A stretch of 64,000 bases of DNA from Trypanosoma brucei. Lineage: Eukaryota. Location: contig CH464491.1 of the NCBI GenBank assembly GCA_000002445.1, forward strand, positions 2,752,001 through 2,816,000, in the 5' to 3' direction. Positions within the stretch are counted from its first letter, which is position 1. Every line of letters begins with the position of its first letter. A model generated the notes under the pieces. It saw nothing but the letters and a program-made list of their open reading frames with translations. It was not told the origin of the DNA and ran no database searches. Below, in pieces: positions 22,812-50,700 of this stretch. Both the position numbers and the translations under genes were made by a program.

Positions 22812-22854
<43 letters not shown>

Positions 22855-22856
22855 TT
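22812..22856. repeat. (AT)n microsatellite of about 15 units, flanked by an ATATAAAT motif, in a 1.7-kb spacer.
   Basis: gtatataaatatatatatatatatatatatatatatttatatat. Confidence 0.9.
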
Positions 22857-23278
22857 TGTTTTACAGCTATAGTGATGTCGTTGCCGCTGCAAAACTTTGT
22901 GTTTCTTTGCAGTGAAACTGCCACAGGCTTTATCTGTGATTGACTGATGTAACTTTTAGTGCTTCTCTCATATATTTGGTTAATTTATCTTTTTTTTCTT
23001 CTGTTCTTTTTTTTTTCTTTTTGGAAGGGGGTTATTCCTCTTGAATTTTGTACTTTGAGAGGAACCTGTGGAGGAAAAAGGAGGGCTCAGTAGATAACCG
23101 TTTCCTTCAACCGGACGCCGAGAAGCTGTAAAAAAGAAAAAAAAGAGAGAAGAGAGAAGGAAAAGAGGTGAAAGAGGCAGGCAGACGGACAGGAAAAGAT
23201 TATAACAAGCAAACACATATATTTGTGAACAATATATATATATATAAATATATTATTTTGTATTCCGTAGTGGCGCTC

Positions 23279-24840: not shown

Positions 24841-24905
24841 CTTTTTTCAGTATTCCATTTGCTGCACTTATCCTTCTATCTCCTTTCCTCCCCCCCCCCT
24901 CCCGA
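24841..24905 (+). promoter_or_regulatory. Long polypyrimidine/C-rich tract upstream of the 24965 CDS, with AG dinucleotides present before the ATG.
   Basis: cttttttcagtattccatttgctgcacttatccttctatctcctttcctccccccccccctcccg. Confidence 0.5.
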
Positions 24906-24964
24906 ATGTTCAAATCAACATTGTTCTGACGCAATTTCCGGAGCCACTGAAACGGAAATATTAC

Positions 24965-29936: not shown

Positions 29937-30365
29937 GATGCGAGCGTAGTATCAGGTGGTGGGGACACTCCCACTTGTTGAAGTGTGTGTCGAAATTTAA
30001 CATATGGAAGTAGGTGTGGCATCGACCTATCTAATACCCATTGGGGGGGGGGCGTCTGTGAAAGTCACTGCATGTGCCCAGCAGGCACCTCCGAAGGTAT
30101 CACCAGTGGTGTTTTCCTTTGCTCTGCACACTAATATTAATAATGGCTTCAAATTTTTTTTGCGTTTGTGGGTCTTTTTTGTAGGGGGAAAAGTTGCACT
30201 ACATTTCACTAAATGTACACAGTGCGATTTTTGTGTTGACTCGGCTCCCAACGTCCAGAAGTTTCTTGTGATTGCAGCGCAGCACTCCCCTTCAGTTCCT
30301 GAGGCGGTTTCTCGGTTCTCTTTCGCTTCTTTCTTTCGTCGGCTCTCATCATAAAAGTGGTTAGG

Positions 30366-34653: not shown

Positions 34654-37600
34654 ATGCCCTTCGCTCCCCAGGGACCTGTGATGGACCTGTACAACTCTGA
34701 TGAAGGGGATCTCCTCGCAATCAGGAGTGAAATGTGGATGTGCGCAGACAGTGAAAAGATGTTCAAGGTGGGCGCTGGCCGGGGGTCAAAGAACATTGTG
34801 AGCATTGAAAACGGGCATTTCTTTGTTTACTCCACTTGCGGAAAGCAGTCGCGGTTGATTAAGGACGTCCCCTTTCATTCAGTAAAGCGCACTGCGTCAT
34901 TTGTACATGATCCAAAGGTGTCTGGTGCGTCCACTGTGTCTGGGATGCAAACGGCGGCTTCGTCCTCGTCATCTTCAGCACGATCACGAGATAGGCGTGC
35001 GGATGTCCAGGTGCCTCCTTACTACTATCTCGTACTGGAGTTCGTACGGGATAAAACGGTAGCCGAGTCGACAAACCTAGCAAAGCGTGAGCACGTTGTG
35101 TTATGCACGGATAACGTGCAGGATTTTCAGTACTGGCAGCAATTCGTTGGGAGGTATAAGTGTCAGTTGAATCGCACTCAGCGACCTGATGAGAGTGTAG
35201 TGGGAGGGCGACGAAGTGGGAAAGGGTGTGTGAAAAGCGCATCACATAAGGAGTGTGATGATAGTGGAAGTGATGAGACGAACCTGGACATCAGCACACT
35301 CACAATGAAACTAGATGAGTTGCAGGAGTGGAAACGAATAGCAGTAGACCTCGCGGATGCGGTGGCGTCGTCGGGGGCGTTCCCTAACTGTAGACGAGAA
35401 TCGTTATCGAATACGGAACCAAATGTGGAGTTTAGTCTGAAATACGTAGAAAAACTGCTTGGTGAGCTGCGGAAAGGGGTGGATTGCCGGTTGAATACAC
35501 TGAACGAGACACAGCCTCCGCTGCCGCTGGTTAAAGATCTTAAACAGCAACTGGAATTGTGGAACAGTCTGTACGACAGAACCTTCTCTGACGACCGCAC
35601 TTCCGAAGCGAGGGGGCTTTTCACAAAAGAGCGGCAACAAGTGCGTGTGCAACGAATGGAAAACATTATTGCGAGGGAACGTACAGAGGGGTGCACAAAA
35701 TTGTCCCCAGTTGTAAGCCGGAGGGAGCTCGTAACATCACCTGAGGAGTGGTTGCAACTTCCCTGCTTGTCTACCTTAAGTGACGCTGATAGTGCACAAA
35801 ACTTAGTTGGAGGACAACGCGAGGGGGGAGTCTTAGACGGTAGCGCAATTACACTGTTAAGCAGTAGCACAGTCCATGCGGATGCACCTCAGGAAGTGTG
35901 GCAACGAGAGCGGAACTTGAGTAGTGCAAATGAAGGTGATATGTTCGCCGAATTGCGGGCGGCGCACCGCAACCTAGGACTGAGATCAGCTCCTCAACAC
36001 GAGTTCCACCAGCTGGAACGCGAGAAGAAAAATACAGAGCGGCTCGCCCGCGAAGGACTCCGTGCTTACACGGAGGCGACAATTGTACTTCTTCAGGCGT
36101 GTTATAGCGAGTACGTAACGGTGGTGGAATGTGTGCTATCTGCCATAAGCGGCGGCGTGGACACACGCGGCGAAAGAAGGCTTGTTACGGCGTATGCGCA
36201 CCTGCAGACGGTTGCAGCACTGGATGAAGCCCGCCGTGCCGCCACGGCGAAGCAGACTCTTCTAGAGAATCTTGTGAACGAACTCAAGGACCTCCAAAAG
36301 ACGCGGGACGAAGAGATTAACGCATTACGCAAAACCTTTTTTCGAGCCAAAGACGGATGGGAGAGTGATCTCGCAGTATTGCAAACAAAGTTAAGGACAC
36401 TGCAGAACACAATGACACAGACAACAGTCGTCGTGCCTTCCGACACGGTGTCATTCCCGCCTCTAGAAAGGGCTCTTTGCGGTGGTGAAAGCAGCCAAGA
36501 ACTGGGGAGGGACAGTGGTGAAGACAAAGTCTCAAACACTAAAATCGAGAGCGTAGACAAAGCAAGTTATGATGAATGTGATGAAGCGGATAGCGACGAA
36601 TCCATTAGGCGGTGGGCAACGCGGCTCACGTGCAGCCACGGTGAACAACGTGGCCACATTATAGCGTTCCGTTTAGAACGGTTCTTTCACTGGACACTCG
36701 AGAACGTCGTACCACTATGCTCCGGCGCAGACACAAACTGTTTGTTAGAACTCGTCATGCGTGCGTTAAGTAATCACATAACACTACTTCAAGCTGCAGG
36801 TGAGGTCTTCGGTACACAGGATGTCAAAGTTAGCGTGGACGACAACGGCGTCCGCGAGAGTAGAGACTTATGCAGTTCAATCCGAGACTTACACACGCAA
36901 CACAGCACCCTGAAGCATCTAGTAGGCAAATATATTGCCCTCACGGAAAATGAAGAAGACAGCCCCGTACTAAGATGCGACGAATTGGAAAAGCAATTAC
37001 AGCTCCACCAGTTTAATACAGCCACATTAGATCATATAAACAGCCTATTAGGAACTGACAACATGACCATAAAAAGGCGAATACAGGATATGATTCAAAA
37101 CGAAGAGCAGCTCCTCAGAATACAGGAAATCACAGGATCAAAAAGAGAAATATGCACAGTACAACACGTGCGACAAAAACACGAAGAACTTCGACAAATG
37201 AGCGAACTGATTAATCGATTAGATCAGTCACGAATGCACCAAGAAAAAGATCTAACAACACAAAATTACGAAGCCTTCACACAAATGAACACATCCGTCA
37301 AGAAAGCAGAGGAAATAATAGAAAATACAACGAAAAAATACAACGAGCTACAGCTACGAATAGACTTCGACAAAATAGAATTCAATGAACGCCTCCAAAT
37401 AGTACACGAATACTACAACGAACATCCACAGCATTACCATAACAACAAGATAAACAAACAAATCGAAGAACTAAATGAAATAATAGAAAAACAACAAAAT
37501 CTCATTGGACATCAAGATAAAAAAGAAAAAAAAACGGAAAGAAACTCATCTACACGTGCCCAGTGCCTACAAGGTATTGAGTCAGCTCTGGCTGTGCTTG

Positions 37601-40600
37601 GTACAACGGAGGCAGAAATGCCACTGGCATCAGCAATTCAGCGTGCTGCCGAGGAAGCTAAGGTTAGGGAAGACACACTGAAGCAAGAGCTAGACGAGGC
37701 TATGGGACGGGAAACTGCTCTGGAGGAACAACTGCGCAATCTGTCGCAAGCAACTATCGCACTACAAGGTACACTGTATGGTGGAGAAATGCCTACGGGG
37801 AATGATGGATCTGCCTTGGATGTTGGTCATGCTGCTATGAGTGCACTGGAGCGTATGCGTGAGGACGCTGCTAAGGCATCGGGGGTCATGACTGCCGCTA
37901 TGCAGGAAGGAGAAATGAGTGTACCCCTGTTAGCAAAATGTCACCATATGGCAGAGACCACGAATGCATTACGCGACAGTGAAAAGCATTACCGTGCGCT
38001 TGTAGGGGAGGACGTCAAGAAGGATAGCGGTTCCACTGGAACAGATGACTCATCTACACGTGCCCAGTGCCTACAAGGTATTGAGTCAGCTCTGGCTGTG
38101 CTTGGTACAACGGAGGCAGAAATGCCACTGGCATCAGCAATTCAGCGTGCTGCCGAGGAAGCTAAGGTTAGGGAAGACACACTGAAGCAAGAGCTAGACG
38201 AGGCTATGGGACGGGAAACTGCTCTGGAGGAACAACTGCGCAATCTGTCGCAAGCAACTATCGCACTACAAGGTACACTGTATGGTGGAGAAATGCCTAC
38301 GGGGAATGATGGATCTGCCTTGGATGTTGGTCATGCTGCTATGAGTGCACTGGAGCGTATGCGTGAGGACGCTGCTAAGGCATCGGGGGTCATGACTGCC
38401 GCTATGCAGGAAGGAGAAATGAGTGTACCCCTGTTAGCAAAATGCCACCATATGGCAGAGACCACGAATGCATTACGCGACAGTGAAAAGCATTACCGTG
38501 CGCTTGTAGGGGAGGACGTCAAGAAGGATAGCGGTTCCACTGGAACAGATGACTCATCTACACGTGCCCAGTGCCTACAAGGTATTGAGTCAGCTCTGGC
38601 TGTGCTTGGTACAACGGAGGCAGAAATGCCACTGGCATCAGCAATTCAGCGTGCTGCCGAGGAAGCTAAGGTTAGGGAAGACACACTGAAGCAAGAGCTA
38701 GACGAGGCTATGGGACGGGAAACTGCTCTGGAGGAACAACTGCGCAATCTGTCGCAAGCAACTATCGCACTACAAGGTACACTGTATGGTGGAGAAATGC
38801 CTACGGGGAATGATGGATCTGCCTTGGATGTTGGTCATGCTGCTATGAGTGCACTGGAGCGTATGCGTGAGGACGCTGCTAAGGCATCGGGGGTCATGAC
38901 TGCCGCTATGCAGGAAGGAGAAATGAGTGTACCCCTGTTAGCAAAATGCCACCATATGGCAGAGACCACGAATGCATTACGCGACAGTGAAAAGCATTAC
39001 CGTGCGCTTGTAGGGGAGGACGTCAAGAAGGATAGCGGTTCCACTGGAACAGATGACTCATCTACACGTGCCCAGTGCCTACAAGGTATTGAGTCAGCTC
39101 TGGCTGTGCTTGGTACAACGGAGGCAGAAATGCCACTGGCATCAGCAATTCAGCGTGCTGCCGAGGAAGCTAAGGTTAGGGAAGACACACTGAAGCAAGA
39201 GCTAGACGAGGCTATGGGACGGGAAACTGCTCTGGAGGAACAACTGCGCAATCTGTCGCAAGCAACTATCGCACTACAAGGTACACTGTATGGTGGAGAA
39301 ATGCCTACGGGGAATGATGGATCTGCCTTGGATGTTGGTCATGCTGCTATGAGTGCACTGGAGCGTATGCGTGAGGACGCTGCTAAGGCATCGGGGGTCA
39401 TGACTGCCGCTATGCAGGAAGGAGAAATGAGTGTACCCCTGTTAGCAAAATGCCACCATATGGCAGAGACCACGAATGCATTACGCGACAGTGAAAAGCA
39501 TTACCGTGCGCTTGTAGGGGAGGACGTCAAGAAGGATAGCGGTTCCACTGGAACAGATGACTCATCTACACGTGCCCAGTGCCTACAAGGTATTGAGTCA
39601 GCTCTGGCTGTGCTTGGTACAACGGAGGCAGAAATGCCACTGGCATCAGCAATTCAGCGTGCTGCCGAGGAAGCTAAGGTTAGGGAAGACACACTGAGGC
39701 AAGAGCTAGACGAGGCTATGGGACGGGAAACTGCTCTGGAGGAACAACTGCGCAATCTGTCGCAAGCAACTATCGCACTACAAGGTACAGTATGTGAAGA
39801 TGGTGCGGATGTGAGTTGTGATATTTCTACTTTTGATCTTTGTAGTGTGGCATTTCTTTCTTTGGGTGTTATTGAAAGTGCTTTTGAGTGTTCAATATCT
39901 CGTGAAGTCTCCCTGAAGAAACAGGTGGAAGAGGCTCATAAAAGAGAAGTTGCGCTCAGGTCTCGATTGAAGTCTTTGGCGAGTGCGGCAACAGCTGTTC
40001 AGAGTACATTGGACGGAAATGCTTCTCCAGAAAGAGTTAGTCCCAAGGAGTCTTCTATTTGTTCTGGTGATGAAGTGGATGGTGACGATGCTTTTGTTGA
40101 TCCTTTTGTTGCCGTTCAACGTGCTGCAGAGGAGTCAAAGGCTTGTAGGAATGCACTGGAAGAAAAACTGAAGGAGGGTGCTGCACGGATTGACGCTGTT
40201 GAGGGACGGCTCTTGCAACTTTCACGTTCCATTATTTGTCTGCACTCTAAGTTGTTTGATGCAGAAATAGGTGGCAATGGTGAGGAACGCGCCGTGGAGT
40301 TAAGTGAGTTGGCTCTTGTTGCTGCTGATGCCATTGAAAACGCTTTTGAGTGTTCAATATCTCGTGAAGTTTCCCTGAAGAAAAAGGTGGAAGAGGCTCA
40401 TAAAAGAGAAGTTGCCCTTAAAACGCGTTTGAAATGCTTGGTTGGTGCGGCAACAGCTGTTCAGTGTACGTTGGAAGGTGGGAATTATTCCTGCACCGCA
40501 GATGACCCTTTAAGTTTGTCGGGTTGTGATATGTCTGCCTCTACCAACCTGGACGATTCTGTACTGGGATCTGTCGCGGCAATTCAGCGTGCTGCCGAGG

Positions 40601-43600
40601 AAGCTAAGGTTAGGGAAGACACACTGAAGCAAGAGCTAGACGAGGCTATGGGACGGGAAACTGCTCTGGAGGAACAACTGCGCAATCTGTCGCAAGCAAC
40701 TATCGCACTACAAGGTACACTGTATGGTGGAGAAATGCCTACGGGGAATGATGGATCTGCCTTGGATGTTGGTCATGCTGCTATGAGTGCACTGGAGCGT
40801 ATGCGTGAGGACGCTGCTAAGGCATCGGGGGTCATGACTGCCGCTATGCAGGAAGGAGAAATGAGTGTACCCCTGTTAGCAAAATGCCACCATATGGCAG
40901 AGACCACGAATGCATTGAATGAGAACGACCGCGAGCTGCGGATGATGTCCAGAAACTTATCCTTTCAACTCTCTGTAGCTATGTTGTTTTTGGAAGAGGC
41001 TGAAGAACGACTAACCCATGTTGTTCGGTATGGATGGGTCCCGGCGAAAGTTGTTTCTGCCGCACTCTGTGGTTGGTTAGTGTTGTGTTGTGCGGGAGAT
41101 TTATTTCACTGCAGCTCTGGCGACACTATTTCTACCTTGGTTGATGTGCGGAAGGAGTTGGATGATCTTCGGAAGCTGTGTGGTTCTCAGAATGCCTTCG
41201 ATCACGGGGAAGTTGCGAATGTGTCGCGGTCGGAATGCTTGCTCGCGATTAAGCGATCCGTCGCTTCTCTTTGCGCTGATGGCGCCGCAGATCCGTCGTT
41301 ACCTCTCCCAACTCAGTTGCAGAAGTGCGTGCAGTCAACCGTGGACGAAATGTATCGCCTTCGTGATGACGCGGATAGTGCGTTGAGTGAAAACGTCAGA
41401 CTAAAACGGGATTTGCAGATGGTTGTCGGGGGCTGTGAAACCTCCCTCGAGTATTTGGGAAGTGCGTGTGGATCCTCTTTGTGTCCCGCACTCAGTCCGC
41501 GATCAGGTGTAGCAGCGGTGTCTAACCTCGTCGTAATGACGGCACGAATTGCAAGTGAGAAATTGTCGAGTCTGCGATCCGTGTGTGAGGAATGTAACTC
41601 TGTTATTGAGCGTGCCCGTAGGAGAGAAGAGCGGTCTCACTCGCGGGAGTCTTCGCCAGCGTCACATCGTGTAGAGGATGGCGCAGAGGCTTTACTTGTG
41701 GAGCGTTGCAAAGAGCTGGTGTCGGAGCTGCTCGTGTTGCGTACCGATCGACGGACTAGCACGGCTGCAATAGACCAGAGGCTTATGGAGAGTGAGTTGA
41801 TGGTGACATCCGTACGAAATGCCATAGAGAACCTACGAACTTCCCTTGATATCGATGTACCTATCGGCACACCTGCCCTGGATTTAGTAAGGACTTCTGG
41901 TAGTTGTGGAGAAGCAGTTGAAGGTGCTATCAGTGAGAAAAGGCAAGTTTCCGCCACCGGACCGAGTTTAGCGGAACTGGACACCTCTATCCGTACCCAG
42001 CTCGAACTCTGCGTGCTTGCAGTGATCAGACAATTACGTGAAAAGGACCGGGTAATTTCCGCTGCGGCAACTTTGTTGGGAGATGCGCTGCGTTCATGCT
42101 CCAGTGCCATTAGAGACGAAGTTACTACTGATTCGCTTTTAGCGGTTGCAAGCGGTACTGCTCACAGTCTGCACTCCCTATTCTCAGAGTTACAGAGTGT
42201 TCGTGCGTCGCTTAAACAATCGCAGCACCACACGGAAGAGCTGCGTACGCGGTTGGAGGGGGGAGAAACAACGCAGCTGGCAACTCTGGAGGCGCAGACG
42301 GAGTCAGTTGCCACAGCGGAACGGCTACTTAATGAGGCACTACAACGACAAGTTGCGGCATCAGCGCAAACAGCAAGACTACAGCGGACGCTCATGGACT
42401 TCGCAGGAAGCATAGCAGCTTCAACGCTTTATGCTGACGATGCAGGTGACCGCGTTGATAAAACGGGAGATGTGGGGGCGTCGGTTTCCGTAGTGGAAGA
42501 GAGATGGCTAGACGGTATTGTAAGGCACGTTGCTCAGCGCATGCAGGAGTCTGAAAGTCTTAAGGGAAAGCTGAAGTTGGTTACATCAGAATTGGAGAGT
42601 GTACGAATAAGGATGACCGCTACTGAGGTGGCTGCACGGGAAGCAGAATTGAATGCGCAGAGTGTGGAAGTCGGTAATCTCACGCGGATAGCTGAAGCAA
42701 CGGCTCGTGTCGAGTTACTTCGCAACGCACTCAGTGAAAGAAGCGTGGAGTTGCAGAAGATGCACCAGCGTGTAGAGCGTCATGAGAAACAGGTGGAAAC
42801 TCTGAAGGCGGAGATTTCAAACGATGCGCGTTCTTTTGACAACGAGCGCTGCAGCCTCCTGCGAGCGCAATCCACGTTGCTAGCAGAAAATACACTGAAA
42901 CAGCAACAACTGGATGAACTTCGCCAAAAGCTATGGGAAGGTGAGAAAAGTCTCCACGAGTTCCTTCATAATTCTCGAGTGGTGTCGTTGGTCGATGCCA
43001 CAAATAAAATACGGAGCCTCTCGGCCAACGCCGTGTGCGGGGTTTTAATGCTTGACGAAATGGAGCGACGCTCCGAGATACTTCAGAGCTATATACTGAG
43101 TTTCCCGACGCAGGAAAGTACCCTTCTGAGTGTTTGTGCTTGCATTGCTAGCACCCTTTCTGAGCGTGAGGTGCAACGACTGCCTGACAGCGTGCACCGA
43201 CTTAACCAGCGGGTGCAGAAGTACAAACATTTGCTAGGAAACCCCACCAAAGTGCCAGGACCTACGCGAGCAGTGGCCGTTTTAGCCTTGCAAAAGTTGG
43301 CTGAAACAGTGGAGCTAGCGGAATCCGTGAGCAGCACATCCTTTGTTTCTAATTTGATCGCAGCCGTTGCCGATTTTCGGACTAGGTATCTAATAGCGAA
43401 CGAGCGGATAGCTAAACTGGAAAAGGAAGTGAATAGCGGCGGAACATTAATGGAGATGTGTGACAGACGGGTATGGGAAATGGTTAAGTTGCTCCGACAG
43501 GCCAACAGTGTCGGAGGGTTACACAGTGGGTCGCAGGAAGGGCCGCGGGGAGAGTGCCAAACCGACGTTGTAGACTTTTCAGTTGCTCAACTTGACGCCC

Positions 43601-46600
43601 TTCAGAGCTTGGCTTTAGAGTGTGGAATTGCTGCTAAATATATCCATCGTCATACCGAAGCAAACAGGAAGGCATTGGAAACTCTGCGTCATGTATATGA
43701 CGGCGAATCGATATTCGAAGCTTGTAGTCACGCCAATGAAATGATGATGAAGTACCGTGAGTCTGAGGAAGACTTGCGGGCTCAACTACTGGACGTACGT
43801 TCGCAGTTGGAAGCATGTCGACACAGCATTGAGGAAAGCTTTAGTGTGTTCGCCGAGACGAGTACGTTGAATGATGCTAAAAAGGTTGAGTTTCTCCAAC
43901 AACAGTGTGCTGCCGCTGCGGCGGAATTAAGGCGTCTCAAAGATGAAGCGCGCGTAGCACAGGGCCTTCTTGCAAGCGCTGGGCACGATACCCATGACGG
44001 TGATATCTGCAGGAACCTCGCAGAGTTGTTGAAAGAAGAAGAAAAGCAGCGAGAGTGTGTGAACCTACTCCAGTCGGAGAAGAAATGCGCGCGAAAGCAG
44101 TTGCAAGAATTAGGGAACAAACTGAGAGCAACGGAAGAAATGAGGAACGCTGAACTAGAAGAGGTGCAAAACCGCAATGACACATTGCGCACACGCTTGG
44201 AGGAACAGTCGAGGCAAAACAATGAATGGTGTCAATTTGTTTCGACATGTGCCGGTGTTGTTGGATGCCCTGTGGAGAACATGCAGTTTGAAAAGAGCAA
44301 AAATAAGATACTTCAAACTTTAAGGAATGTAGCCTCTTCGCAATCCGTATGCGCTGAGGCGGGAATACTCTGCACAACCGCGCAGGAGGAACAACTGCAG
44401 TGCCATCGCGAGGGGGCGAACGCGGCCGTTGCGCGTCTGGACATGCCAGGTAGCGAAAGATACCGCTGCCAACTGCTAGAGTTTGTGGGAAGTGTCGAAG
44501 AAGTCCTTTCCGAGTTGTGTCCCGAGAAGTCTGAAAGCTTTCTAACAACCAAAGATGCTCCTTTGGAGCTCCGCGTGTGCCAGGCGGCTGGACAACTGTG
44601 TTCGGCAAAAGATACTGTGCAGGCGAACATACAAAAACTGGAGGCTGAAATTGCTTCTGCCAAGAAGAAAAACAAAGCTCAAAAAAGAGAGATGGAAGAT
44701 GCGAGGAAGGCCCTTCACAAGGAACTTGAGGTTGGCGGCCCGGCGGTTGCATCTTGTGCTCTTTCAACACTTACTGAAGGCATTCGAAAAAAACTCCGTG
44801 AGACGCTTGACGAAAATCGAAAACTGGGAACGGCCTTGGAGGAGCTACGCATCGATAATGCGCAACTGGAGAGGACTCTAAGGTGTGTGGAACAACAACT
44901 CTCTGAGACGCATACGCAACTACAGTGCATCACAGAGTCAAATGGTGAATGCAGAGGTCAAAATGCCACCCTGCAGGAGAGAGTTGACCCGCTTACTGAA
45001 CCTACTGAAGAGGCTTCCAGGAAGTTCAGGAGCCCAACTCAGTCACCCGACATTGATGCTGATGCCGCCGGCCTTGCGCAAGTTCACGAAGTTTGCTTCG
45101 GTAGGGGGCCGAGCATACAACACCGCAGTGAGGAACCACGGGAGTTTGAGGATAATCTAAGGGGTAACTGCCGCAGTGATGCCGCTGCTGTGATGGACGT
45201 AGGTGTAGCGCCGAAAGAACAGCGTTCACTCCTGGAGAGGCTGCAGCAGGTGACCAAGGAACGCGACGTCTTGACATTGGAATCGGAAAAACTCGTTGAA
45301 CGTGTGCAGAGTGTGCTTTATGAGCACTTGAACGTCCAGCAGGAATTACTTTCCTATTGTAGTAACGCAAATGAAAATGAGTTGGGGGAAAGCGACACAA
45401 CCGTGGGGGATATTGTCCAGCTTTGCGTTGAGCGTCTGGAGCACTACCTCTCTGAAACAAAGACGCTGAGGGAAGACGCTACCTCCGCAAAACTAGAAAG
45501 CGCACGGATGGCAGAAGAGGTGGCTGCACTACGGGGTCGCATCAAACACCTCCAGGACGACAACCACGTAGCGGAACGGGACTCACTCAGGCAAAATGCA
45601 GAATTCGAGAGTCTGTCACGTCAGCTGCAGGCGTTCTTTAACGATGCATTGCACATGGCAGTCAATGACCTGCGACTCCGCTTGCCACCTGTCACAGACA
45701 CAAGCGCCATCGGGGCACTCTACGGTCTCCAGTCTCTTTTCGACTGCATGCTAAGTAAATGTCGTGATTCTATTGCTTTCGATGAAGAAAAGCTAAATTG
45801 CAGACTGAACGAACTGAAAGGAAAGCATGCGAAGGATTTAAAGAGTTTGCATCGCGTTTTTTGCGCCCACGTGACGACGTACACGGACGACCCAAATGAC
45901 GAGGACTCTGCTCGTAGCGAAGGTGACGGCAGCAGTCCCGTCAATTTGCCCACCACCGACAGGCTCAGCGGAGGGCTCACACCAGAACATATTGTTGCTG
46001 CGGGAGACGCACTGCATCACGTGCACAGCAACGTTTGTCACATTGTATGGGCATGTATACGACATGCGGAGAGGGCGCCCCCTCCTTCATTACATACAAT
46101 GGGCCTACCCGCGCTAACAGCACTTTTAGGGGAGGTTGTCGTTGCCTCACTAGAGCGGGCGGAGCTGCTGCAAGGGGCGATGGTGGCTGGGTCGAGGGCA
46201 CTTGGAATTCTTCCAGTGGACCCTTCTTTAAACCAGCAGCACATGGAGGAATGGTTAGAATGTTTTACCTCAGAAATTCAGCGCGTTCAGCGAAGCGGTG
46301 AAGGTTGTGAGCTCTTGCTTAATCATTTAGAGATTCTCCTACAAGACCACGGGATCAGCGTCGGAGAGTTAGTCAGCAACAGCCGCAGCCAAAGCACACT
46401 CAGTAATGTTGGTCGACTTTCACAAGACAACCAACTTGGCTCACCCCGTGGTCCCAGCAGCAGCGTGGCGGTGCAGGATGTCATGGAGTTTCGCTCTCGT
46501 GCACTGCTCGGTGCGTTGCGCGACCTTATTGCACAATTTGAGCACCGCTACAGCACACTGACGTCCGAGTGGCAGGCACTAACAGATCAAAACAACCGGC

Positions 46601-46905
46601 TCAAGACTTCACAGCAGGCAAATGAGGAGGAGTTTGCACGCGTCCAGGAGCAAATGCAAGAGCTGCGGCATGCTGTAAGAAAGAAGGTTGAAGACGACCG
46701 CAAAGTGGAGCAGAGCTTACGTGATCTAGACAACCATCTCGACATGCAAGCAAGGGAGCTTGCCATGAAGTATCGTGCAGACCAAGAGGCGATTTCCAGG
46801 CAGTTTGCAGAGTTGCGTGGGTCGATTCGCAGGGTGGTAATACCAACACAAGAGCAGTTGGGGACGCCGTCTCCGAAATACGATTTCGTGTACCCTAGGG
46901 AATAA
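34654..46905 (+). CDS. Giant repeat-containing protein (4083 aa). The N-terminal ~960 aa are non-repetitive. The central section holds about 4.5 near-identical 168-aa tandem repeats plus older diverged copies. The C-terminal ~2000 aa are a coiled-coil-rich region. It is probably a cytoskeletal or flagellar structural protein.
   Basis: ATG at 34654 and a single 12.25-kb ORF. The repeat unit is STRAQCLQGIESALAVLGTTEAEMPLASAIQRAAEEAKVREDTLKQELDEAMGRETALEEQLRNLSQATIALQGTLYGGEMPTGNDGSALDVGHAAMSALERMREDAAKASGVMTAAMQEGEMSVPLLAKCHHMAETTNALRDSEKHYRALVGEDVKKDSGSTGTDDS. Copies start at 37549, 38053, 38557, 39061 and 39565, the last one partial. The C-terminal region has E/L/R/Q-rich heptads. Confidence 0.9.
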   Translation: MPFAPQGPVMDLYNSDEGDLLAIRSEMWMCADSEKMFKVGAGRGSKNIVSIENGHFFVYSTCGKQSRLIKDVPFHSVKRTASFVHDPKVSGASTVSGMQTAASSSSSSARSRDRRADVQVPPYYYLVLEFVRDKTVAESTNLAKREHVVLCTDNVQDFQYWQQFVGRYKCQLNRTQRPDESVVGGRRSGKGCVKSASHKECDDSGSDETNLDISTLTMKLDELQEWKRIAVDLADAVASSGAFPNCRRESLSNTEPNVEFSLKYVEKLLGELRKGVDCRLNTLNETQPPLPLVKDLKQQLELWNSLYDRTFSDDRTSEARGLFTKERQQVRVQRMENIIARERTEGCTKLSPVVSRRELVTSPEEWLQLPCLSTLSDADSAQNLVGGQREGGVLDGSAITLLSSSTVHADAPQEVWQRERNLSSANEGDMFAELRAAHRNLGLRSAPQHEFHQLEREKKNTERLAREGLRAYTEATIVLLQACYSEYVTVVECVLSAISGGVDTRGERRLVTAYAHLQTVAALDEARRAATAKQTLLENLVNELKDLQKTRDEEINALRKTFFRAKDGWESDLAVLQTKLRTLQNTMTQTTVVVPSDTVSFPPLERALCGGESSQELGRDSGEDKVSNTKIESVDKASYDECDEADSDESIRRWATRLTCSHGEQRGHIIAFRLERFFHWTLENVVPLCSGADTNCLLELVMRALSNHITLLQAAGEVFGTQDVKVSVDDNGVRESRDLCSSIRDLHTQHSTLKHLVGKYIALTENEEDSPVLRCDELEKQLQLHQFNTATLDHINSLLGTDNMTIKRRIQDMIQNEEQLLRIQEITGSKREICTVQHVRQKHEELRQMSELINRLDQSRMHQEKDLTTQNYEAFTQMNTSVKKAEEIIENTTKKYNELQLRIDFDKIEFNERLQIVHEYYNEHPQHYHNNKINKQIEELNEIIEKQQNLIGHQDKKEKKTERNSSTRAQCLQGIESALAVLGTTEAEMPLASAIQRAAEEAKVREDTLKQELDEAMGRETALEEQLRNLSQATIALQGTLYGGEMPTGNDGSALDVGHAAMSALERMREDAAKASGVMTAAMQEGEMSVPLLAKCHHMAETTNALRDSEKHYRALVGEDVKKDSGSTGTDDSSTRAQCLQGIESALAVLGTTEAEMPLASAIQRAAEEAKVREDTLKQELDEAMGRETALEEQLRNLSQATIALQGTLYGGEMPTGNDGSALDVGHAAMSALERMREDAAKASGVMTAAMQEGEMSVPLLAKCHHMAETTNALRDSEKHYRALVGEDVKKDSGSTGTDDSSTRAQCLQGIESALAVLGTTEAEMPLASAIQRAAEEAKVREDTLKQELDEAMGRETALEEQLRNLSQATIALQGTLYGGEMPTGNDGSALDVGHAAMSALERMREDAAKASGVMTAAMQEGEMSVPLLAKCHHMAETTNALRDSEKHYRALVGEDVKKDSGSTGTDDSSTRAQCLQGIESALAVLGTTEAEMPLASAIQRAAEEAKVREDTLKQELDEAMGRETALEEQLRNLSQATIALQGTLYGGEMPTGNDGSALDVGHAAMSALERMREDAAKASGVMTAAMQEGEMSVPLLAKCHHMAETTNALRDSEKHYRALVGEDVKKDSGSTGTDDSSTRAQCLQGIESALAVLGTTEAEMPLASAIQRAAEEAKVREDTLRQELDEAMGRETALEEQLRNLSQATIALQGTVCEDGADVSCDISTFDLCSVAFLSLGVIESAFECSISREVSLKKQVEEAHKREVALRSRLKSLASAATAVQSTLDGNASPERVSPKESSICSGDEVDGDDAFVDPFVAVQRAAEESKACRNALEEKLKEGAARIDAVEGRLLQLSRSIICLHSKLFDAEIGGNGEERAVELSELALVAADAIENAFECSISREVSLKKKVEEAHKREVALKTRLKCLVGAATAVQCTLEGGNYSCTADDPLSLSGCDMSASTNLDDSVLGSVAAIQRAAEEAKVREDTLKQELDEAMGRETALEEQLRNLSQATIALQGTLYGGEMPTGNDGSALDVGHAAMSALERMREDAAKASGVMTAAMQEGEMSVPLLAKCHHMAETTNALNENDRELRMMSRNLSFQLSVAMLFLEEAEERLTHVVRYGWVPAKVVSAALCGWLVLCCAGDLFHCSSGDTISTLVDVRKELDDLRKLCGSQNAFDHGEVANVSRSECLLAIKRSVASLCADGAADPSLPLPTQLQKCVQSTVDEMYRLRDDADSALSENVRLKRDLQMVVGGCETSLEYLGSACGSSLCPALSPRSGVAAVSNLVVMTARIASEKLSSLRSVCEECNSVIERARRREERSHSRESSPASHRVEDGAEALLVERCKELVSELLVLRTDRRTSTAAIDQRLMESELMVTSVRNAIENLRTSLDIDVPIGTPALDLVRTSGSCGEAVEGAISEKRQVSATGPSLAELDTSIRTQLELCVLAVIRQLREKDRVISAAATLLGDALRSCSSAIRDEVTTDSLLAVASGTAHSLHSLFSELQSVRASLKQSQHHTEELRTRLEGGETTQLATLEAQTESVATAERLLNEALQRQVAASAQTARLQRTLMDFAGSIAASTLYADDAGDRVDKTGDVGASVSVVEERWLDGIVRHVAQRMQESESLKGKLKLVTSELESVRIRMTATEVAAREAELNAQSVEVGNLTRIAEATARVELLRNALSERSVELQKMHQRVERHEKQVETLKAEISNDARSFDNERCSLLRAQSTLLAENTLKQQQLDELRQKLWEGEKSLHEFLHNSRVVSLVDATNKIRSLSANAVCGVLMLDEMERRSEILQSYILSFPTQESTLLSVCACIASTLSEREVQRLPDSVHRLNQRVQKYKHLLGNPTKVPGPTRAVAVLALQKLAETVELAESVSSTSFVSNLIAAVADFRTRYLIANERIAKLEKEVNSGGTLMEMCDRRVWEMVKLLRQANSVGGLHSGSQEGPRGECQTDVVDFSVAQLDALQSLALECGIAAKYIHRHTEANRKALETLRHVYDGESIFEACSHANEMMMKYRESEEDLRAQLLDVRSQLEACRHSIEESFSVFAETSTLNDAKKVEFLQQQCAAAAAELRRLKDEARVAQGLLASAGHDTHDGDICRNLAELLKEEEKQRECVNLLQSEKKCARKQLQELGNKLRATEEMRNAELEEVQNRNDTLRTRLEEQSRQNNEWCQFVSTCAGVVGCPVENMQFEKSKNKILQTLRNVASSQSVCAEAGILCTTAQEEQLQCHREGANAAVARLDMPGSERYRCQLLEFVGSVEEVLSELCPEKSESFLTTKDAPLELRVCQAAGQLCSAKDTVQANIQKLEAEIASAKKKNKAQKREMEDARKALHKELEVGGPAVASCALSTLTEGIRKKLRETLDENRKLGTALEELRIDNAQLERTLRCVEQQLSETHTQLQCITESNGECRGQNATLQERVDPLTEPTEEASRKFRSPTQSPDIDADAAGLAQVHEVCFGRGPSIQHRSEEPREFEDNLRGNCRSDAAAVMDVGVAPKEQRSLLERLQQVTKERDVLTLESEKLVERVQSVLYEHLNVQQELLSYCSNANENELGESDTTVGDIVQLCVERLEHYLSETKTLREDATSAKLESARMAEEVAALRGRIKHLQDDNHVAERDSLRQNAEFESLSRQLQAFFNDALHMAVNDLRLRLPPVTDTSAIGALYGLQSLFDCMLSKCRDSIAFDEEKLNCRLNELKGKHAKDLKSLHRVFCAHVTTYTDDPNDEDSARSEGDGSSPVNLPTTDRLSGGLTPEHIVAAGDALHHVHSNVCHIVWACIRHAERAPPPSLHTMGLPALTALLGEVVVASLERAELLQGAMVAGSRALGILPVDPSLNQQHMEEWLECFTSEIQRVQRSGEGCELLLNHLEILLQDHGISVGELVSNSRSQSTLSNVGRLSQDNQLGSPRGPSSSVAVQDVMEFRSRALLGALRDLIAQFEHRYSTLTSEWQALTDQNNRLKTSQQANEEEFARVQEQMQELRHAVRKKVEDDRKVEQSLRDLDNHLDMQARELAMKYRADQEAISRQFAELRGSIRRVVIPTQEQLGTPSPKYDFVYPRE
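37545..39796 (+). repeat. Tandem array of a 504-bp unit (about 4.46 copies) inside the giant CDS. Copies differ by only 1-2 nucleotides.
   Basis: Unit starts, taken as the TCTACACGTGCCCAGTGCCTACAAGG landmark, are at 37549, 38053, 38557, 39061 and 39565. The period is exactly 504 bp. Copy 1 carries a TGT/TGC synonymous difference near 37936. Copy 5 carries an AAG-to-AGG change (K to R) near 39696 and diverges after about 39790. Confidence 0.95.
39871..40482 (+). repeat. Two diverged ~462-bp repeat copies related to the 504-bp unit (older, decayed copies).
   Basis: ATTGAAAGTGCTTTTGAGTGTTCAATATCTCGTGAAGTCTCCCTGAAGAAACAGGTGGAAGAGGCTCATAAAAGAGAAGTTGCGCTCAGG at 39871 matches ATTGAAAACGCTTTTGAGTGTTCAATATCTCGTGAAGTTTCCCTGAAGAAAAAGGTGGAAGAGGCTCATAAAAGAGAAGTTGCCCTTAAA at 40333 at about 90% identity. 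Each is followed by AVQRAAEESK and AIQRAAEEAK-like segments that echo the main unit. Confidence 0.8.
40577..40913 (+). repeat. Additional detached partial copy (~337 bp) of the 504-bp unit. It is near-identical to the array copies and sits 0.8 kb downstream.
   Basis: The stretch GCAATTCAGCGTGCTGCCGAGGAAGCTAAGGTTAGGGAAGACACACTGAAGCAAGAGCTAGACGAGGC...ACCACGAATGCATT matches the array unit from the AIQRAAEEAK motif through HMAETTNAL. Confidence 0.9.
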
Positions 46906-47320: not shown

Positions 47321-47741
47321 CCTCACTGGGTGAAAGCGGGTTGTGGTTAACGAGAAAAAGCAAGCAGATAAGGGTTACCTGCAAAAACTGTTGGATCCTC
47401 TTGGGGGATCGAAGTGAGTACGTCGCCCTTTAGCGCAAGCGGGGCAAACTGGGAGGGTGAAGGAAAAAAACACGGGTGCGCACAAACGGAGTTGTCTTGT
47501 TGTAGTTCAGTCGTGCTTCCGCAGATACGGTTGTAATTCCTAGGGGTTGCAAACCGAGAGAAAACGGGGACTACGCCGGCCAAGGCGTGGATATTAAAGA
47601 GCGGCAAACCATTGATCACATATCCATACCGGTTAGCTATCCCCTTCCTATACATACATACACGCAAACACACTCCGCTTGCATATATAGACATCATACG
47701 CTAAGGTGTAACTGGTCTTGATTCTACCGGTGCAAGTCACT

Positions 47742-50700
47742 ATGTCGTCCCGCGATTTGAGGGGTCGGGCGTGTTCAAATTCAACTGCGGCTAGTGCTTC
47801 GCGACTGCTCTGTCTGCCATGGGAACTCGTTGAAGTTGAGCTTCCGAAAGAAATGGATGTTCCGGTAAGTGAATCACTATTTTCTGTTGGAAACGGACGT
47901 GTAACCGTCCGGGGATATACGGAGGAGTCACTCGTTGCGCCCCCGTATTCGAGGGGTACAAACTCTCACGATATAGCCATCCGTAGTCCTGTAGTTTCCT
48001 TGTACGGTGGTATTGGCAATGATGTCATCAAGGTGGGGAACAGGAGTTTGAGCAACAGTCATCTCCTTGGAAACCCATCTTCACCCGTTAGGTGTGACTC
48101 GTTACCCACCGAGGGGCACCCGACCGCCTCCAAAGAATGGAAGCCCCCTGAACGAACCCTGCGTGGGACTTACGTCAACGGGATCTGCGAGGAGCTTCTG
48201 TTAACCCATCATCAGCAGCAAAGGGCATTCACTGTTGGAACTTGTGCTCGTGAGTCATTTCTTGTATGTGCGCCGGATGCCTTTTGCATCGACGTTTTTG
48301 TCGGAGGTGAGCACGTGAATTCAGAAACAGGGATCATACTTTCGCACAGACGCACGTTAGATTATCACACGGGTGAGCTTCGTCGGCACCTGGTGTGGCA
48401 ATCCAGGAGTAATGGGCACGAGGTGACCATTGAGTCTTCAAGAATTGTTTCCCTAACACGGAGGAGCATCGCAGCAGTTAAATATTCTGTTAGTGCCAAG
48501 AACGTCTCCAATACGAATATCCGCATCGTATCTCGTACCATTGTTCCTTCGGGTGTGCGACAACACCTTAAGATTGAAAATGTTATGACTAGGCGCACTC
48601 TGCATGACGCTTCGACAGCGGTGCTTGTGCGCACACGAAATAGTTGCAAGCGGTTAGTGGTGGCTGAGTTTGAGGCTTGTCGTAGCACGCACTACGAGCT
48701 CATTAACACACAGAGTGTGCCGACGTTTTCAACTGTTACAAGTGCAGTAGGAGCACATGGTGCTAACACTCCACCGTGCGCCGTAGCAGCAGATGCGTCT
48801 TTAGCTGCAGGCCGGACACCATTGGCTTCGCCTAAGCCGATGGCACAACCACAGCCGCAACCAACACCATCCTTGACCTTCCTCGCACCGAAATGTTCTG
48901 AGATACGAAACGGCGCAGAAACCATCTACACCAGCGTAATACGTGAGTCTACACGGTTTGAGCTTACCAAATACATTGCCTTCCTAGTTGACGAGGATGC
49001 AGCACCGGAGGATATTTGTGACCTGGGAATGCACCGTGCTCGAGAAGCGGCTGCTGTCACCTACGAGGCCATCTGTCGCGAACAGTTGGACGTTTTGTCA
49101 AATTTCTGGGAGAGAGGGAATGTACATATCAAAGCCAGTGGTCCGTCGCTTGAAAGTGCGGTGAGATTTAACATGCTGCACCTTCTTATGTCGTCGGGAG
49201 GGTTACAAATGCAAAGTCACCCGTCGCGTGGTTTTATGAGTCAGCTGCAGGGAGGCATGCACCAGTGGGATGTAGACGCGTTTATCGTTCCTTTTTTCTC
49301 ACATGTGCGCCCCGAAGTCGCACGCGGGTTGTTGCAGTTTCGTATTGACACGCTGCCGCAAGCGAGAAGCCTTGCGGCGGACGTTGATCTTCCACGAGGT
49401 GCACTATACCCACAGAGGACTGTGAACGGTTTGGAAAGCAATCCTCCGCCGTTCTGCGCGGCCTTCCTGTTTACAAATGCGGTTGTTGCGTACGGTATGA
49501 AGCAGTATATTACTGCCACAAATGATTTCTCCATTCTACCGCAAGGTGGTGCTGATGTTCTCTTTTCTACTGCGCTCATTTGGCTTATATGGGGTACGTG
49601 GGATAAAGCAGAGTTCCACGTTAGATCTGTGGGGGGACCCGATGATTACAGCTGTCTCGGTGATAATAATTACTTTACAAATCTCATGGCAAAGTTTCAC
49701 ATGCAGTGGGCGGTGCAAATAGCCGCATCGATGCAAAGAGACTATCCTAACGAATGGGAAGGCGTGAAGGAGAGATGCCAACTAACTGATGATGACCTTG
49801 CAATGATGGACAAGGCCGCTGCAAAGGTGGTACTAGTTTTCGATGCCAAAAATCGTGTGCACCCTGTTGATCAGTTATTCATGAGGAAGAAAAAGTGGAA
49901 ATTTGATGAACTGAAGAAGAAGAAAAGTCTTCTATTTCGTACGTTTGACCCTTCTGTTGTTTACCGACATCAGGTATGTCGCATTCCCGACGTGGTTCTT
50001 GCCTCGCTTTTATTGCCGGAAAAGTGCACAAAAGACGAGGTGCGTGCCAACTACAATTTCTATGAGCCTATCACCACAAGCGATTGCTCGCTTACCTCGA
50101 TGATATTTAGTATCATTGCAATACAACTTGATATGTTGGACAAGGGAATGCACTATTTCCACCAGGCTCTCTTCAACGATATTGAAAATGCGCTCGGTAA
50201 TACAGCCCGCGGCATCCACTGCAGCTCCGCGGCGGGATCTTGGTGGTGTTTGACCGTTGGATTCGGTGGAATGAGGGTAGTTGATGACACACTGCACTTT
50301 AACCCTGTTCTCCCTGACGCGTGGGAGGAGTACCAGTTTTTTGTGCGCCATCACGGTTGCCTTATCAAGGTGCTTATTACTCGCAGGATGGTCACATATA
50401 CGGCTGTGGAGGGGTGCTTCGACAGGTGCGGTTTGCCGATTTATCATACGGAGATCAACACCATCCACCTGAAGGAAGGCATGTCTGAATCCGTGAGGCT
50501 TTACCGCGATGTTCGCGTATTTGACTTCGACTGTGTGGTGTTTAATCTTGACAGTTTGATCGAGGACCTGGAGGACCATCACTACCGCGCATGGAAGCAA
50601 ACCCTCGAGAAATACCTTCACGAAATGGGGCAAACTTCATTTGTGCTTACAGAGGACATATATCTTGCATACCTCAAGAATGGAAATTCGTTCACATCAT

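What the first reader, a model, noticed from the sequence alone, without database searches (positions are those of the whole stretch)
34654..46905. A 4083-aa giant protein built around a 168-aa tandem repeat, probably a cytoskeletal or flagellar repetitive antigen
A single 12.25-kb ORF has a non-repetitive N-terminal ~960 aa. Its centre holds about 4.5 almost nucleotide-identical 504-bp repeats. Each repeat encodes a helical, E/A/L-rich unit with a conserved GGEMPTGNDGSALDVGH loop and a Cys-His pair (LLAKCHHMAE). The C-terminal ~2000 aa are a coiled-coil-rich tail. Giant proteins with tandem repeats are known in trypanosomatids as cytoskeletal, flagellum-attachment-zone or flagellar components and as dominant B-cell antigens. 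I do not recognise a 168-aa unit of this sequence from any described family, so this may be an uncharacterised member.
Basis: partly seen in the sequence, partly recalled or inferred. Interest (0 to 1): 0.7.

Follow-up and report, generated by a model that had tools for sequence, protein, structure and literature searches.

The report
Giant repeat-bearing basal body protein
The 12-kb gene is real and is the Trypanosoma brucei gene Tb927.11.10660, a giant cytoskeletal protein already localised to the flagellar basal body but otherwise unstudied; every trypanosomatid lineage has expanded its repeat block to a different unit size, and this assembly probably under-counts the copies.

Summary
ORF 34654-46905 encodes 4083 aa with four full 504-bp units (at most 1 mismatch) plus a 244-nt partial copy.

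The window is Trypanosoma brucei chromosome 11. The ORF lies between AP-3beta (Tb927.11.10650) and trehalose phosphorylase (Tb927.11.10670), so it is Tb927.11.10660. That gene was endogenously tagged to the basal body and found in the cytoskeletal fraction of a polo-like-kinase proximity screen. It has no name and no functional study.

It is not a chimera. T. cruzi has the same architecture in the same synteny, and its tail aligns at 31% identity over 2180 aa.

The family spans kinetoplastids. It has three conserved modules: a probably PH-like head, a middle block and a C-terminal coiled coil of about 105 aa. A ~75-aa unit core sits at about aa 950 and was amplified independently, with units of 74 to 201 aa and 3 to 57 copies.

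The units evolve in concert. A long-read T. b. equiperdum assembly holds about 23.5 units (about 22 kb), so the 4.5 copies here are probably a collapse or strain variation.

The best reading is a basal-body tether or spacer that works like p197 but is not its homologue. No match to a named antigen or FAZ protein was found.

The parts
34654..46905 (+). Whole ORF, 4083 aa, 450 kDa, pI 5.2. It is T. brucei Tb927.11.10660, identified by its flanking genes. A second in-frame ATG at 34681 (M10) aligns better with the starts of the orthologues.
34702..35178 (+). Head module (aa ~17-175), the most conserved part of the protein. It has invariant KVGAGRGSKN and LAKRExVVLCT motifs and a disordered insert at aa ~90-120. 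The predicted fold is a beta-sandwich with a C-terminal helix, which is PH-like.
35941..37053 (+). Conserved middle block (aa ~430-800), helical with heptad-like segments. It contains motifs such as WATRL and VPLCxGxxxNCxLE.
   Evidence: Alignment A1. BLASTP gives 23-28% identity to Leishmaniinae. Heptad-like segments at aa 473-509, 535-594 and 733-766. No PDB or Pfam match.
37544..39800 (+). Main tandem array: four full 504-bp (168-aa) units plus a 244-nt partial fifth. Each unit is predicted as four helices (about 17, 53, 30 and 29 aa) plus a disordered acidic Ser/Thr/Gly-rich linker of about 16 aa.
39801..40578 (+). Degenerate block of 778 nt. It holds three diverged units that contain only the ~75-aa core (starting at aa 1743, 1820 and 1890). 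It includes an 82%-identical pair at 39848-40016 and 40310-40478. In T. b. equiperdum this block occurs twice.
40579..40916 (+). Terminal partial unit of 338 nt, 99.7% identical to unit positions 90-427. In T. b. equiperdum a second array of about 4.3 units lies between the two copies of the degenerate block.
40917..46500 (+). Tail (aa ~2089-3949). It diverges quickly and has scattered heptad-like segments. It is colinear with the T. cruzi tail.
   Evidence: tblastn gives 31% identity over 2180 aa, E = 0, for Tb aa 1991-4058 against L001:23627-29899. Heptad-like fraction 0.27-0.30.
46501..46818 (+). Conserved C-terminal coiled-coil module (aa ~3950-4055), with the pattern ...LTxEWQ...ELRxxVxxKVxEDxKxExSLRxLDxHLDxQARELAMKYxADQxAI...
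   Evidence: BLASTP over Tb aa ~3931-4082, which contains this module: 39-49% identity to Leishmania, 42% to Lotmaria and 32% to the bodonid-like P0041. Alignment A4. Heptad-like segments at aa 3945-4031 and 4034-4062. Only generic coiled-coil matches in Pfam and PDB.
30357..33122 (+). Upstream neighbour, the AP-3 beta adaptin (Tb927.11.10650). Used as the anchor for the gene ID.
   Evidence: Adaptin_N E = 4e-87. PMC4263762. The same neighbour is present in T. cruzi and T. b. equiperdum.
47718..51341 (+). Downstream neighbour, a GH65 putative trehalose phosphorylase (Tb927.11.10670). Used as the anchor for the gene ID.
   Evidence: GH65 N, middle and C domains. Listed in a lateral-gene-transfer gene set. 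Called a putative trehalose phosphorylase in bioRxiv 10.1101/2021.05.26.445766. Same neighbour in T. b. equiperdum.

Best explanation
The ORF is the T. brucei gene Tb927.11.10660. It encodes a kinetoplastid-specific giant structural protein of the flagellar basal body region.

Shown here:
- It has three conserved non-repeat modules: a head that is probably PH-like, a helical middle block, and a C-terminal coiled coil of about 105 aa.
- Between them lie a lineage-variable array of helical units and a fast-evolving helical tail.
- The array sits at the same position (about aa 950) in all trypanosomatids. It is built on a shared ~75-aa core, is homogenised by concerted evolution, and differs widely in unit length and copy number.

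Inferred: the protein is an elongated tether or spacer. Its conserved ends dock to two different partners. One is at the basal body or pro-basal body. The other is reached through the PH-like head and is a membrane lipid or a protein. The repeat array and tail set the reach and flexibility of the link. This is how p197 of the tripartite attachment complex works, although the two proteins are not homologous.

The 4.5 copies in this window are most likely an assembly collapse or a strain-specific low count. The native protein may be about 7000 aa or more.
For: Identity:
- 98% identity to T. b. equiperdum chromosome-11 models and 98.7% to T. b. gambiense CBH18076.1.
- The ORF is bracketed by AP-3beta (Tb927.11.10650) and GH65 trehalose phosphorylase (Tb927.11.10670), with EIF4G4 (Tb927.11.10560) nine genes upstream.

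Localisation (experimental, from the literature): Tb927.11.10660 was found only in the cytoskeletal pellet fraction of the TbPLK BioID. Tagging at the endogenous locus placed it at the basal body (PMC4551316). Some T. cruzi orthologues are labelled 'Basal body protein'.

Real gene, conserved architecture: T. cruzi YC6 has the same synteny, a head, 22 units of 510 bp, and a colinear tail.

Family: 27 representatives from Trypanosoma, Leishmania, Lotmaria, Novymonas, Leptomonas, Bodo and related sequences.

Conserved ends and variable centre: head 42-46% identity, the C-terminal region (aa 3931-4082) 39-49%, middle block 23-28% to Leishmania. Units are 74, 82, 92, 96, 168, 170 and 201 aa, in 3 to 57 copies, all starting at aa 913-956.

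Concerted evolution: units are 99-100% identical within a genome and 45% identical between T. brucei and T. cruzi. Strain differences are fixed in all 21 full T. b. equiperdum units.

Copy number: about 23.5 units in the long-read T. b. equiperdum assembly, against 4.5 here and 6.5 in T. b. gambiense.

Precedent: p197 has 3.5 repeats in the reference, about 26 by long reads and 34.5 by Southern blot. Its termini are conserved, and its repeat domain sets the distance between the basal body and the mitochondrial outer membrane (PMC9546609; bioRxiv 10.1101/2023.03.06.531305).

Against: - No experiment addresses function. Localisation comes from one table entry in a screen, with no sub-basal-body resolution and no RNAi phenotype found.
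- I could not confirm it in TrypTag, because the ID is absent from the supplement text that is held.
- The gene ID rests on synteny and numbering, not on a sequence match to a record carrying that ID. The exact 4083-aa product is not on record.
- The unit's tertiary structure could not be predicted (pLDDT 50). Whether the array is a rod, beads on a string or a flexible chain is unknown.
- A spacer role is an analogy. Repeats could instead provide multivalent binding sites.
- Bodo, which has the head, has no detectable units. The array is therefore not required for the ancestral function.
Confidence: 0.5

Rival explanations
1. It is a multivalent scaffold of the pericentriolar or basal-body matrix. 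Each identical unit would be a docking site for a partner such as TbPLK or another basal-body component. Copy number would then set valency, not length.
For: - Proximity to TbPLK in BioID.
- The unit core (ALAxLG...P...AIxRAAxxAxxRE) is conserved from Leishmania to Trypanosoma. That is more constraint than a pure spacer needs. By contrast, p197 orthologues outside T. brucei have no repeats at all.
- Each unit is predicted as a multi-helix module with loops, not one continuous helix.
Against: - No partner is known.
- Unit length and the non-core half vary freely from 74 to 201 aa.
- Copy number ranges from 3 to 57 between lineages, which is hard to reconcile with a stoichiometric scaffold.
- The structure model is of low confidence.
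Confidence: 0.25
2. This is the first reader's view: a repetitive cytoskeletal, FAZ or flagellar antigen, whose repeats matter mainly as an immunodominant B-cell target.
For: - Tandem-repeat proteins of trypanosomatids are often antibody targets. This is general knowledge and is echoed in papers found.
- The largest arrays seen here are in vertebrate-infecting species: L. braziliensis 57, T. cruzi 22, L. donovani 19. This comparison is confounded by assembly technology.
Against: - The recorded location is the basal body, not the FAZ or flagellum.
- There is no FAZ1_cons domain.
- No serology literature mentions this gene.
- The unit matches no named antigen.
- Identical or similar units exist in insect-only Novymonas, Lotmaria and Leptomonas.
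- Antigenicity would be a by-product, not a mechanism.
Confidence: 0.15
3. It is an assembly artefact or chimera: the ORF joins unrelated N- and C-terminal genes through a misassembled repeat.
For: - Near-identical 504-bp repeats are exactly what assemblers mishandle.
- Copy number differs between assemblies.
- Annotations in two long-read assemblies break the gene into pieces.
Against: - The order head, array, tail is the same in T. b. gambiense, T. b. equiperdum and T. cruzi, and their loci were fetched in the same synteny.
- Leishmania, Lotmaria and the bodonid-like P0041 proteins carry both the head and the C-terminal module in one polypeptide.
- The breaks are 1-4-nt indels, several of them at short homopolymer runs.
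- Only the copy number is doubtful, not the junctions.
Confidence: 0.03

Closest known systems
p197 (Tb927.10.15750), the exclusion-zone filament protein of the T. brucei tripartite attachment complex
   Same: - A giant acidic alpha-helical protein anchored at the basal body and found in the same TbPLK BioID.
- A central array of near-identical long units: 175 aa (525 bp) against 168 aa (504 bp).
- Conserved termini with a variable centre.
- Copy number is grossly under-represented in reference assemblies: 3.5 against about 26 to 34.5.
   Different: - No detectable sequence relationship. The unit search and the N-terminal profile search did not return p197.
- It is a different chromosome and locus.
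- p197 has an N-terminal zinc finger. This protein has a PH-like head.
[quoted passage not shown] This unit is predicted as four helices with loops (low confidence).
- p197 orthologues in other kinetoplastids lack repeats. Here almost every trypanosomatid has an array.
- The partners and the distance it might span are unknown.
Giant repeat-containing FAZ proteins of T. brucei (FAZ1, FAZ10)
   Same: - High-molecular-mass, detergent-insoluble cytoskeletal proteins with central tandem repeats and coiled-coil regions (PMC5358337, listed).
- They appear in the same PLK-proximity dataset as other FAZ proteins.
   Different: - The recorded location is the basal body, not the FAZ.
- The T. brucei protein has no FAZ1_cons (PF23398) domain.
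- Only an Angomonas relative that shares the head carries that domain. The unit is unrelated.
PH-domain superfold (PH, PTB, EVH1, FERM-F3)
   Same: - The head is predicted as a beta-sandwich capped by a C-terminal helix.
- An invariant basic Gly-rich loop (K38, R43, K46) lies between early strands, where PH domains bind ligands. That position is my inference.
   Different: - No Pfam PH model matches and no PDB sequence matches.
- Sequence identity in the superpositions is 5-14%.
- It has a ~30-aa disordered insert and extra N-terminal strands.
- Foldseek is not significant. The ligand is unknown.

Membership tests
Orthologue group of T. brucei Tb927.11.10660 (kinetoplastid giant basal-body protein) | Position between AP-3beta (Tb927.11.10650) and GH65 trehalose phosphorylase (Tb927.11.10670) on chromosome 11 | tested here: met
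   Pfam on the neighbours, literature descriptions of the flanking IDs, and the same order in T. b. equiperdum and T. cruzi.
Orthologue group of T. brucei Tb927.11.10660 (kinetoplastid giant basal-body protein) | Near-identity to T. brucei-clade proteins across the full length | tested here: met
   98.7% identity over aa 950-4083 to T. b. gambiense P0009. The T. b. equiperdum fragments tile the ORF at 97-99%.
Orthologue group of T. brucei Tb927.11.10660 (kinetoplastid giant basal-body protein) | Direct sequence match to a record that carries the ID Tb927.11.10660 | not testable with these tools
   TriTrypDB is not available here. The exact 4083-aa product is not on record in the collection.
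Orthologue group of T. brucei Tb927.11.10660 (kinetoplastid giant basal-body protein) | Basal-body localisation | not testable with these tools
   Taken from PMC4551316 Table 1: endogenous tagging gave BB, and the BioID hit was in the pellet fraction.
p197 / TAC exclusion-zone filament protein | Sequence homology to p197 (175-aa repeat, N-terminal zinc finger) | tested here: not met
   The unit search returned only a T. cruzi marinkellei orthologue fragment. The N-terminal profile search of 1.84 billion representatives returned only this family. The head is PH-like, not a zinc finger. No direct pairwise test was made, because the p197 sequence was not retrieved.
p197 / TAC exclusion-zone filament protein | N-terminus at the mitochondrial outer membrane (TAC65), C-terminus at the basal body, and length setting the distance between them | not testable with these tools
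   This needs expansion microscopy of doubly tagged protein, as in PMC9546609.
FAZ1-type flagellum attachment zone proteins | Presence of the FAZ1 conserved domain (PF23398) | tested here: not met
   The whole-protein Pfam scan at E <= 0.1 shows no FAZ1_cons. The model does detect the domain in Angomonas P0029 at E = 8e-31.
PH-like domain superfold | Seven-stranded beta-sandwich closed by a C-terminal alpha-helix | tested here: inconclusive
PH-like domain superfold | Phosphoinositide or peptide ligand binding | not testable with these tools
   The only pointer is the invariant basic loop KVGAGRGSKN. Its role as a binding site is inference.
Named trypanosomatid tandem-repeat antigens (for example MARP, GM6, FRA, CRA) | High-identity match of the unit to a described antigen repeat | tested here: not met
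   The unit search against 5.8 billion proteins gave a single hypothetical T. cruzi marinkellei fragment. No paper links the gene ID to serology.

The most novel reading that the evidence does not exclude
Tb927.11.10660 would be a second, independently evolved 'molecular ruler' of the basal-body region. In this reading it is a tether of about 800 kDa whose PH-like head and C-terminal coiled coil dock to two different structures. Its length would be retuned in every trypanosomatid lineage by re-amplifying a shared 75-aa helical core into units of 74-201 aa. With the T. b. equiperdum copy number it would rival p197, which a 2026 preprint calls the largest T. brucei protein.
Probability: 0.25. 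Interest if true: 0.65.

Novelty: new member of a known kind. Interest (0 to 1): 0.42.

Why it matters
The basal body of trypanosomes organises flagellum assembly, segregation of the mitochondrial genome and cell division. Many of its large structural links still have no molecular identity.

This gene is annotated 'hypothetical' almost everywhere. Even so, it is conserved from free-living Bodo to Leishmania, and a screen has already placed it at the basal body. That makes it a ready candidate for one of those links.

Two practical points follow:
1. Reference assemblies probably under-state its size several-fold, as happened with p197. That affects proteomics, knock-out and tagging design, and any claim about 'the largest protein'.
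2. The family is a clean natural experiment. The same core has been amplified into different unit lengths at the same site in different lineages, which is useful for studying concerted evolution and whether array length is functionally tuned.

If the unit proves antigenic, its high copy number and species-specific sequence could have diagnostic value. That is untested.

Tried and rejected
- TRF on the region missed the array because its period limit is 500.
- The whole-protein homology search timed out.
- The C-terminal homology search returned nothing. I attribute this to the 90% clusters being represented by N-terminal fragments. It was resolved by BLAST against full-length cluster members and against the fetched loci.
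- Pfam gave nothing above its cut-offs on the whole protein or on each module. The sub-threshold SASP, DDE_Tnp and ADAMTSL1 hits, and the coiled-coil families at the C-terminus, were judged noise.
- PDB sequence searches with profiles of the head, the N-terminal 960 aa and the C-terminal module gave only generic helical proteins.
- AlphaFold2 on two units had too low confidence (pLDDT 50, pTM 0.26) to interpret the packing, so I ran no fold search on it.
- The afdb50 fold library was unavailable.
- Foldseek against the PDB for the head was not significant.
- Literature:
  - The gene ID occurs in the main text of one paper only.
  - It is not in the held supplements of the transition-fibre paper or of TrypTag.
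  - The supplements of the PLK, KMP11 and CK1.2 papers are not held.
  - No 'BBP450'-type name exists.
  - The Nanopore and EATRO1125 genome papers say nothing about this gene.
- Rfam and tRNA scans of the window were empty.
- The Cys-His motif idea was rejected because the His residues are not conserved in T. cruzi.
- A Walker-A reading of GAGRGSK was considered and rejected by inspection, because the spacing does not fit GxxxxGK[ST].
Full report
OBSERVATION

The ORF at 34654-46905 (+) is present and encodes 4083 aa. The predicted mass is 450 kDa and the pI is 5.2. Tandem Repeats Finder missed the array because its period limit is 500.

The repeat finder and an offset-504 self-comparison show four full 504-bp units at 37544-39559. 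Copies 2-4 differ from copy 1 at a single position. A 244-nt partial fifth copy follows at 39560-39800.

A 778-nt block (39801-40578) holds three degenerate units that keep only the first ~75 aa of the unit. A further partial unit, 99.7% identical, follows at 40579-40916.

The array is Ala/Glu/Leu-rich. An AlphaFold2 model of two units predicts four helices per unit (about 17, 53, 30 and 29 residues) with a disordered linker of about 16 residues. The model's confidence is low (pLDDT 50, pTM 0.26), so only the secondary structure is usable.

By a home-made heptad measure, 20% of the residues lie in heptad-like windows, against 3.7 +/- 1.5% in composition-matched shuffles. These windows lie in the middle region and the tail (25-30%). 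They are almost absent from the array (2%).

WHAT AND WHERE

All long ORFs in the window lie on the + strand. The N-terminal 960 aa match a T. brucei equiperdum chromosome-11 protein at 98%. They match proteins of T. theileri, T. melophagium, T. rangeli and T. cruzi at 34-43%. T. b. gambiense CBH18076.1 (4419 aa) is 98.7% identical over the region after the N-terminus and is exactly two units longer.

Several neighbours could be identified, and they fix the gene ID:
- A MIF4G protein, which is EIF4G4, Tb927.11.10560.
- COG2.
- An Exo_endo_phos protein.
- An adaptin of 921 aa directly upstream, which is AP-3beta, Tb927.11.10650, 100 kDa.
- A GH65 enzyme directly downstream, which is the putative trehalose phosphorylase Tb927.11.10670.

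The ORF is therefore Tb927.11.10660. This rests on synteny and numbering. The exact product is not on record in the collection.

WHAT IS KNOWN

The ID occurs in the main text of one paper in the library. In McAllaster et al. 2015 (PMC4551316) it was a TbPLK BioID hit found only in the detergent-insoluble pellet. Tagging at the endogenous locus placed it at the basal body.

Some T. cruzi assemblies label the orthologue 'Basal body protein', and UniRef calls others 'PH domain-containing'. I found no name, no phenotype and no serology.

NOT A CHIMERA

The T. cruzi YC6 locus has the same upstream synteny. It carries the same head, 22 units of 510 bp (split over three frames by indels) and a downstream ORF. 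That ORF aligns colinearly with T. brucei aa 1991-4058 at 31% identity over 2180 aa, E = 0. Leishmania, Lotmaria and a bodonid-like protein each carry both the head and the C-terminal module in one polypeptide.

THE FAMILY

A profile of the N-terminal region was searched against 1.84 billion representatives. It returned 27 proteins, all kinetoplastid or kinetoplastid-like:
- Leishmania (3423-6195 aa), Lotmaria, Novymonas, Leptomonas and Angomonas.
- T. congolense and T. grayi.
- Bodo saltans (4666 aa) and unnamed environmental sequences.

Three non-repeat modules are conserved:
- Head, aa ~17-175: 42-46% identity to Leishmania and 30% to Bodo.
- Middle block, aa ~430-800: 23-28% identity.
- C-terminal coiled-coil module, aa ~3950-4055, lying within the aligned region aa 3931-4082: 39-49% identity to Leishmania and 32% to a bodonid-like protein.

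None of the modules matches Pfam above its cut-offs or any PDB sequence specifically.

THE ARRAY ACROSS LINEAGES

An HMM of the ~75-aa unit core (ALAxLG...P...AIxRAAxxAxxRE...) finds it at about aa 950 in every trypanosomatid orthologue.

| Lineage | Unit length (aa) | Copies |
|---|---|---|
| T. brucei (this window) | 168 | 4.5 near-identical; 9 HMM core matches including degenerate and terminal copies |
| T. cruzi | 170 | 14 in the gene model, 22 in the locus |
| T. congolense | 201 | at least 3 |
| L. donovani | 92 | 19 |
| L. martiniquensis | 92 | 28 |
| L. mexicana | 82 | 6 |
| L. braziliensis | 74 | 35-57 |
| Novymonas | 96 | 3 |
| Lotmaria | not identical | 2-3 |

T. melophagium amplifies a 28-aa sub-segment of the unit. 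Bodo, the bodonid-like sequences and the Angomonas protein have no detectable core. The core is therefore ancestral to trypanosomatids, and amplification with different unit boundaries happened repeatedly.

CONCERTED EVOLUTION AND COPY NUMBER

Units are 99-100% identical within a genome, but only 45% identical between T. brucei and T. cruzi. Between this window and T. b. equiperdum, three unit positions differ in all 21 full equiperdum units. A further substitution site (adjacent positions 248/249) differs in 18-19 of them.

The long-read T. b. equiperdum assembly has 18.5 units, the degenerate block, 4.3 units, the degenerate block again, and the final partial copy. Its gene spans about 22.2 kb, or about 7400 codons. 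It is broken into about eight gene models by 1-4-nt indels, several of them at short homopolymer runs.

p197 gives a documented precedent in the same organism. It has 3.5 repeats in the reference, about 26 by long reads and 34.5 by Southern blot. The 4.5 copies here are therefore likely a collapse or a strain-specific minimum. I cannot tell which without reads.

MECHANISM

Shown:
- A cytoskeletal, basal-body-associated giant (from the literature).
- Conserved ends and a variable repetitive centre.
- Rapid homogenisation and copy-number change.

Inferred: the protein is an elongated tether or spacer. Its conserved head and C-terminal coiled coil dock to two structures, and the array and tail set reach and flexibility, as shown experimentally for p197. 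It is not a p197 homologue. The repeat and profile searches never return p197. The head is PH-like and not a zinc finger. The unit is predicted as four helices and not one.

The main rival is a multivalent scaffold, in which each unit binds a partner. The conservation of the unit core favours some sequence-specific role.

The antigen reading is untested, and it would be a by-product in any case. Units also occur in insect-only trypanosomatids.

VERDICT

The gene and its localisation are already in the public record, so this is not a discovery of a new entity. I file it as a new, uncharacterised member of the known class of giant repeat-bearing cytoskeletal proteins of trypanosomatids.

The points that I did not find described in the literature I could search are:
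- The family-wide architecture.
- The independent re-amplification of a shared core.
- The PH-like head.
- The likely several-fold under-estimate of its size.

These are of moderate interest to trypanosome cell biologists.

Noticed in passing
P0029 (Angomonas deanei CAD2213121.1, 1182 aa), compared with window 34714-35604: An Angomonas protein shares the head module (32% identity over Tb aa 21-317). It also carries a genuine FAZ1_cons domain (PF23398, E = 8e-31) and has no unit core and no middle block. It could be a paralogue, a domain fusion or a misassembly. It hints at a link between this head and FAZ1-type proteins.
   Followed up: partly
P0041 (4736 aa, ENA) and P0051 (2006 aa, JGI): Unnamed environmental kinetoplastid-like proteins share the head, and P0041 also shares the C-terminal module. 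Instead of this unit they contain an unrelated Arg/Trp-rich repeat of 262 aa.
   Followed up: partly
L002 + L003 (T. b. equiperdum CM010682.1, 1841421-1880622): The long-read assembly holds about 23.5 units in a higher-order pattern: array, 778-nt block, array, 778-nt block, remnant. Indels of 1-4 nt, several at short homopolymer runs, split the gene into about 8 'hypothetical protein' models (DPX39_110081700 to 082600).
   Followed up: yes
L001:12788-24000 (T. cruzi YC6 CM026630.1): There are 22 units of 510 bp spread over three reading frames. The annotation splits one gene into 3299-, 641-, 301- and 2299-aa models, each separated by the same 116-nt gap.
   Followed up: yes
P0003 / P0065 (T. 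melophagium): This species has amplified a 28-aa sub-segment of the unit's long helix (GLETMVAEHAEREERLEVQLAEAAERAS) inside the larger unit. The result is nested repeats.
   Followed up: partly
window 34654 vs 34681: The first ATG adds nine residues (MPFAPQGPV) that are absent from all orthologues. The second in-frame ATG (M10) aligns with their starts and may be the true start codon.
   Followed up: partly
window 21558-24964: An unusually long AT-rich stretch (GC 0.38 at 22-24 kb) lies inside the + strand gene array. It has a (TA)21 microsatellite at 22812-22854, only short ORFs, and no tRNA or Rfam hit.
   Followed up: partly
window 7282-7400: An imperfect CAG/CAA (Gln-rich) repeat lies inside the MIF4G ORF identified as EIF4G4 (Tb927.11.10560).
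   Followed up: no
window 47718-51341: A three-domain GH65 enzyme (putative trehalose phosphorylase, Tb927.11.10670) lies immediately downstream. It is included in a published study of laterally transferred genes in Leishmania.
   Followed up: partly
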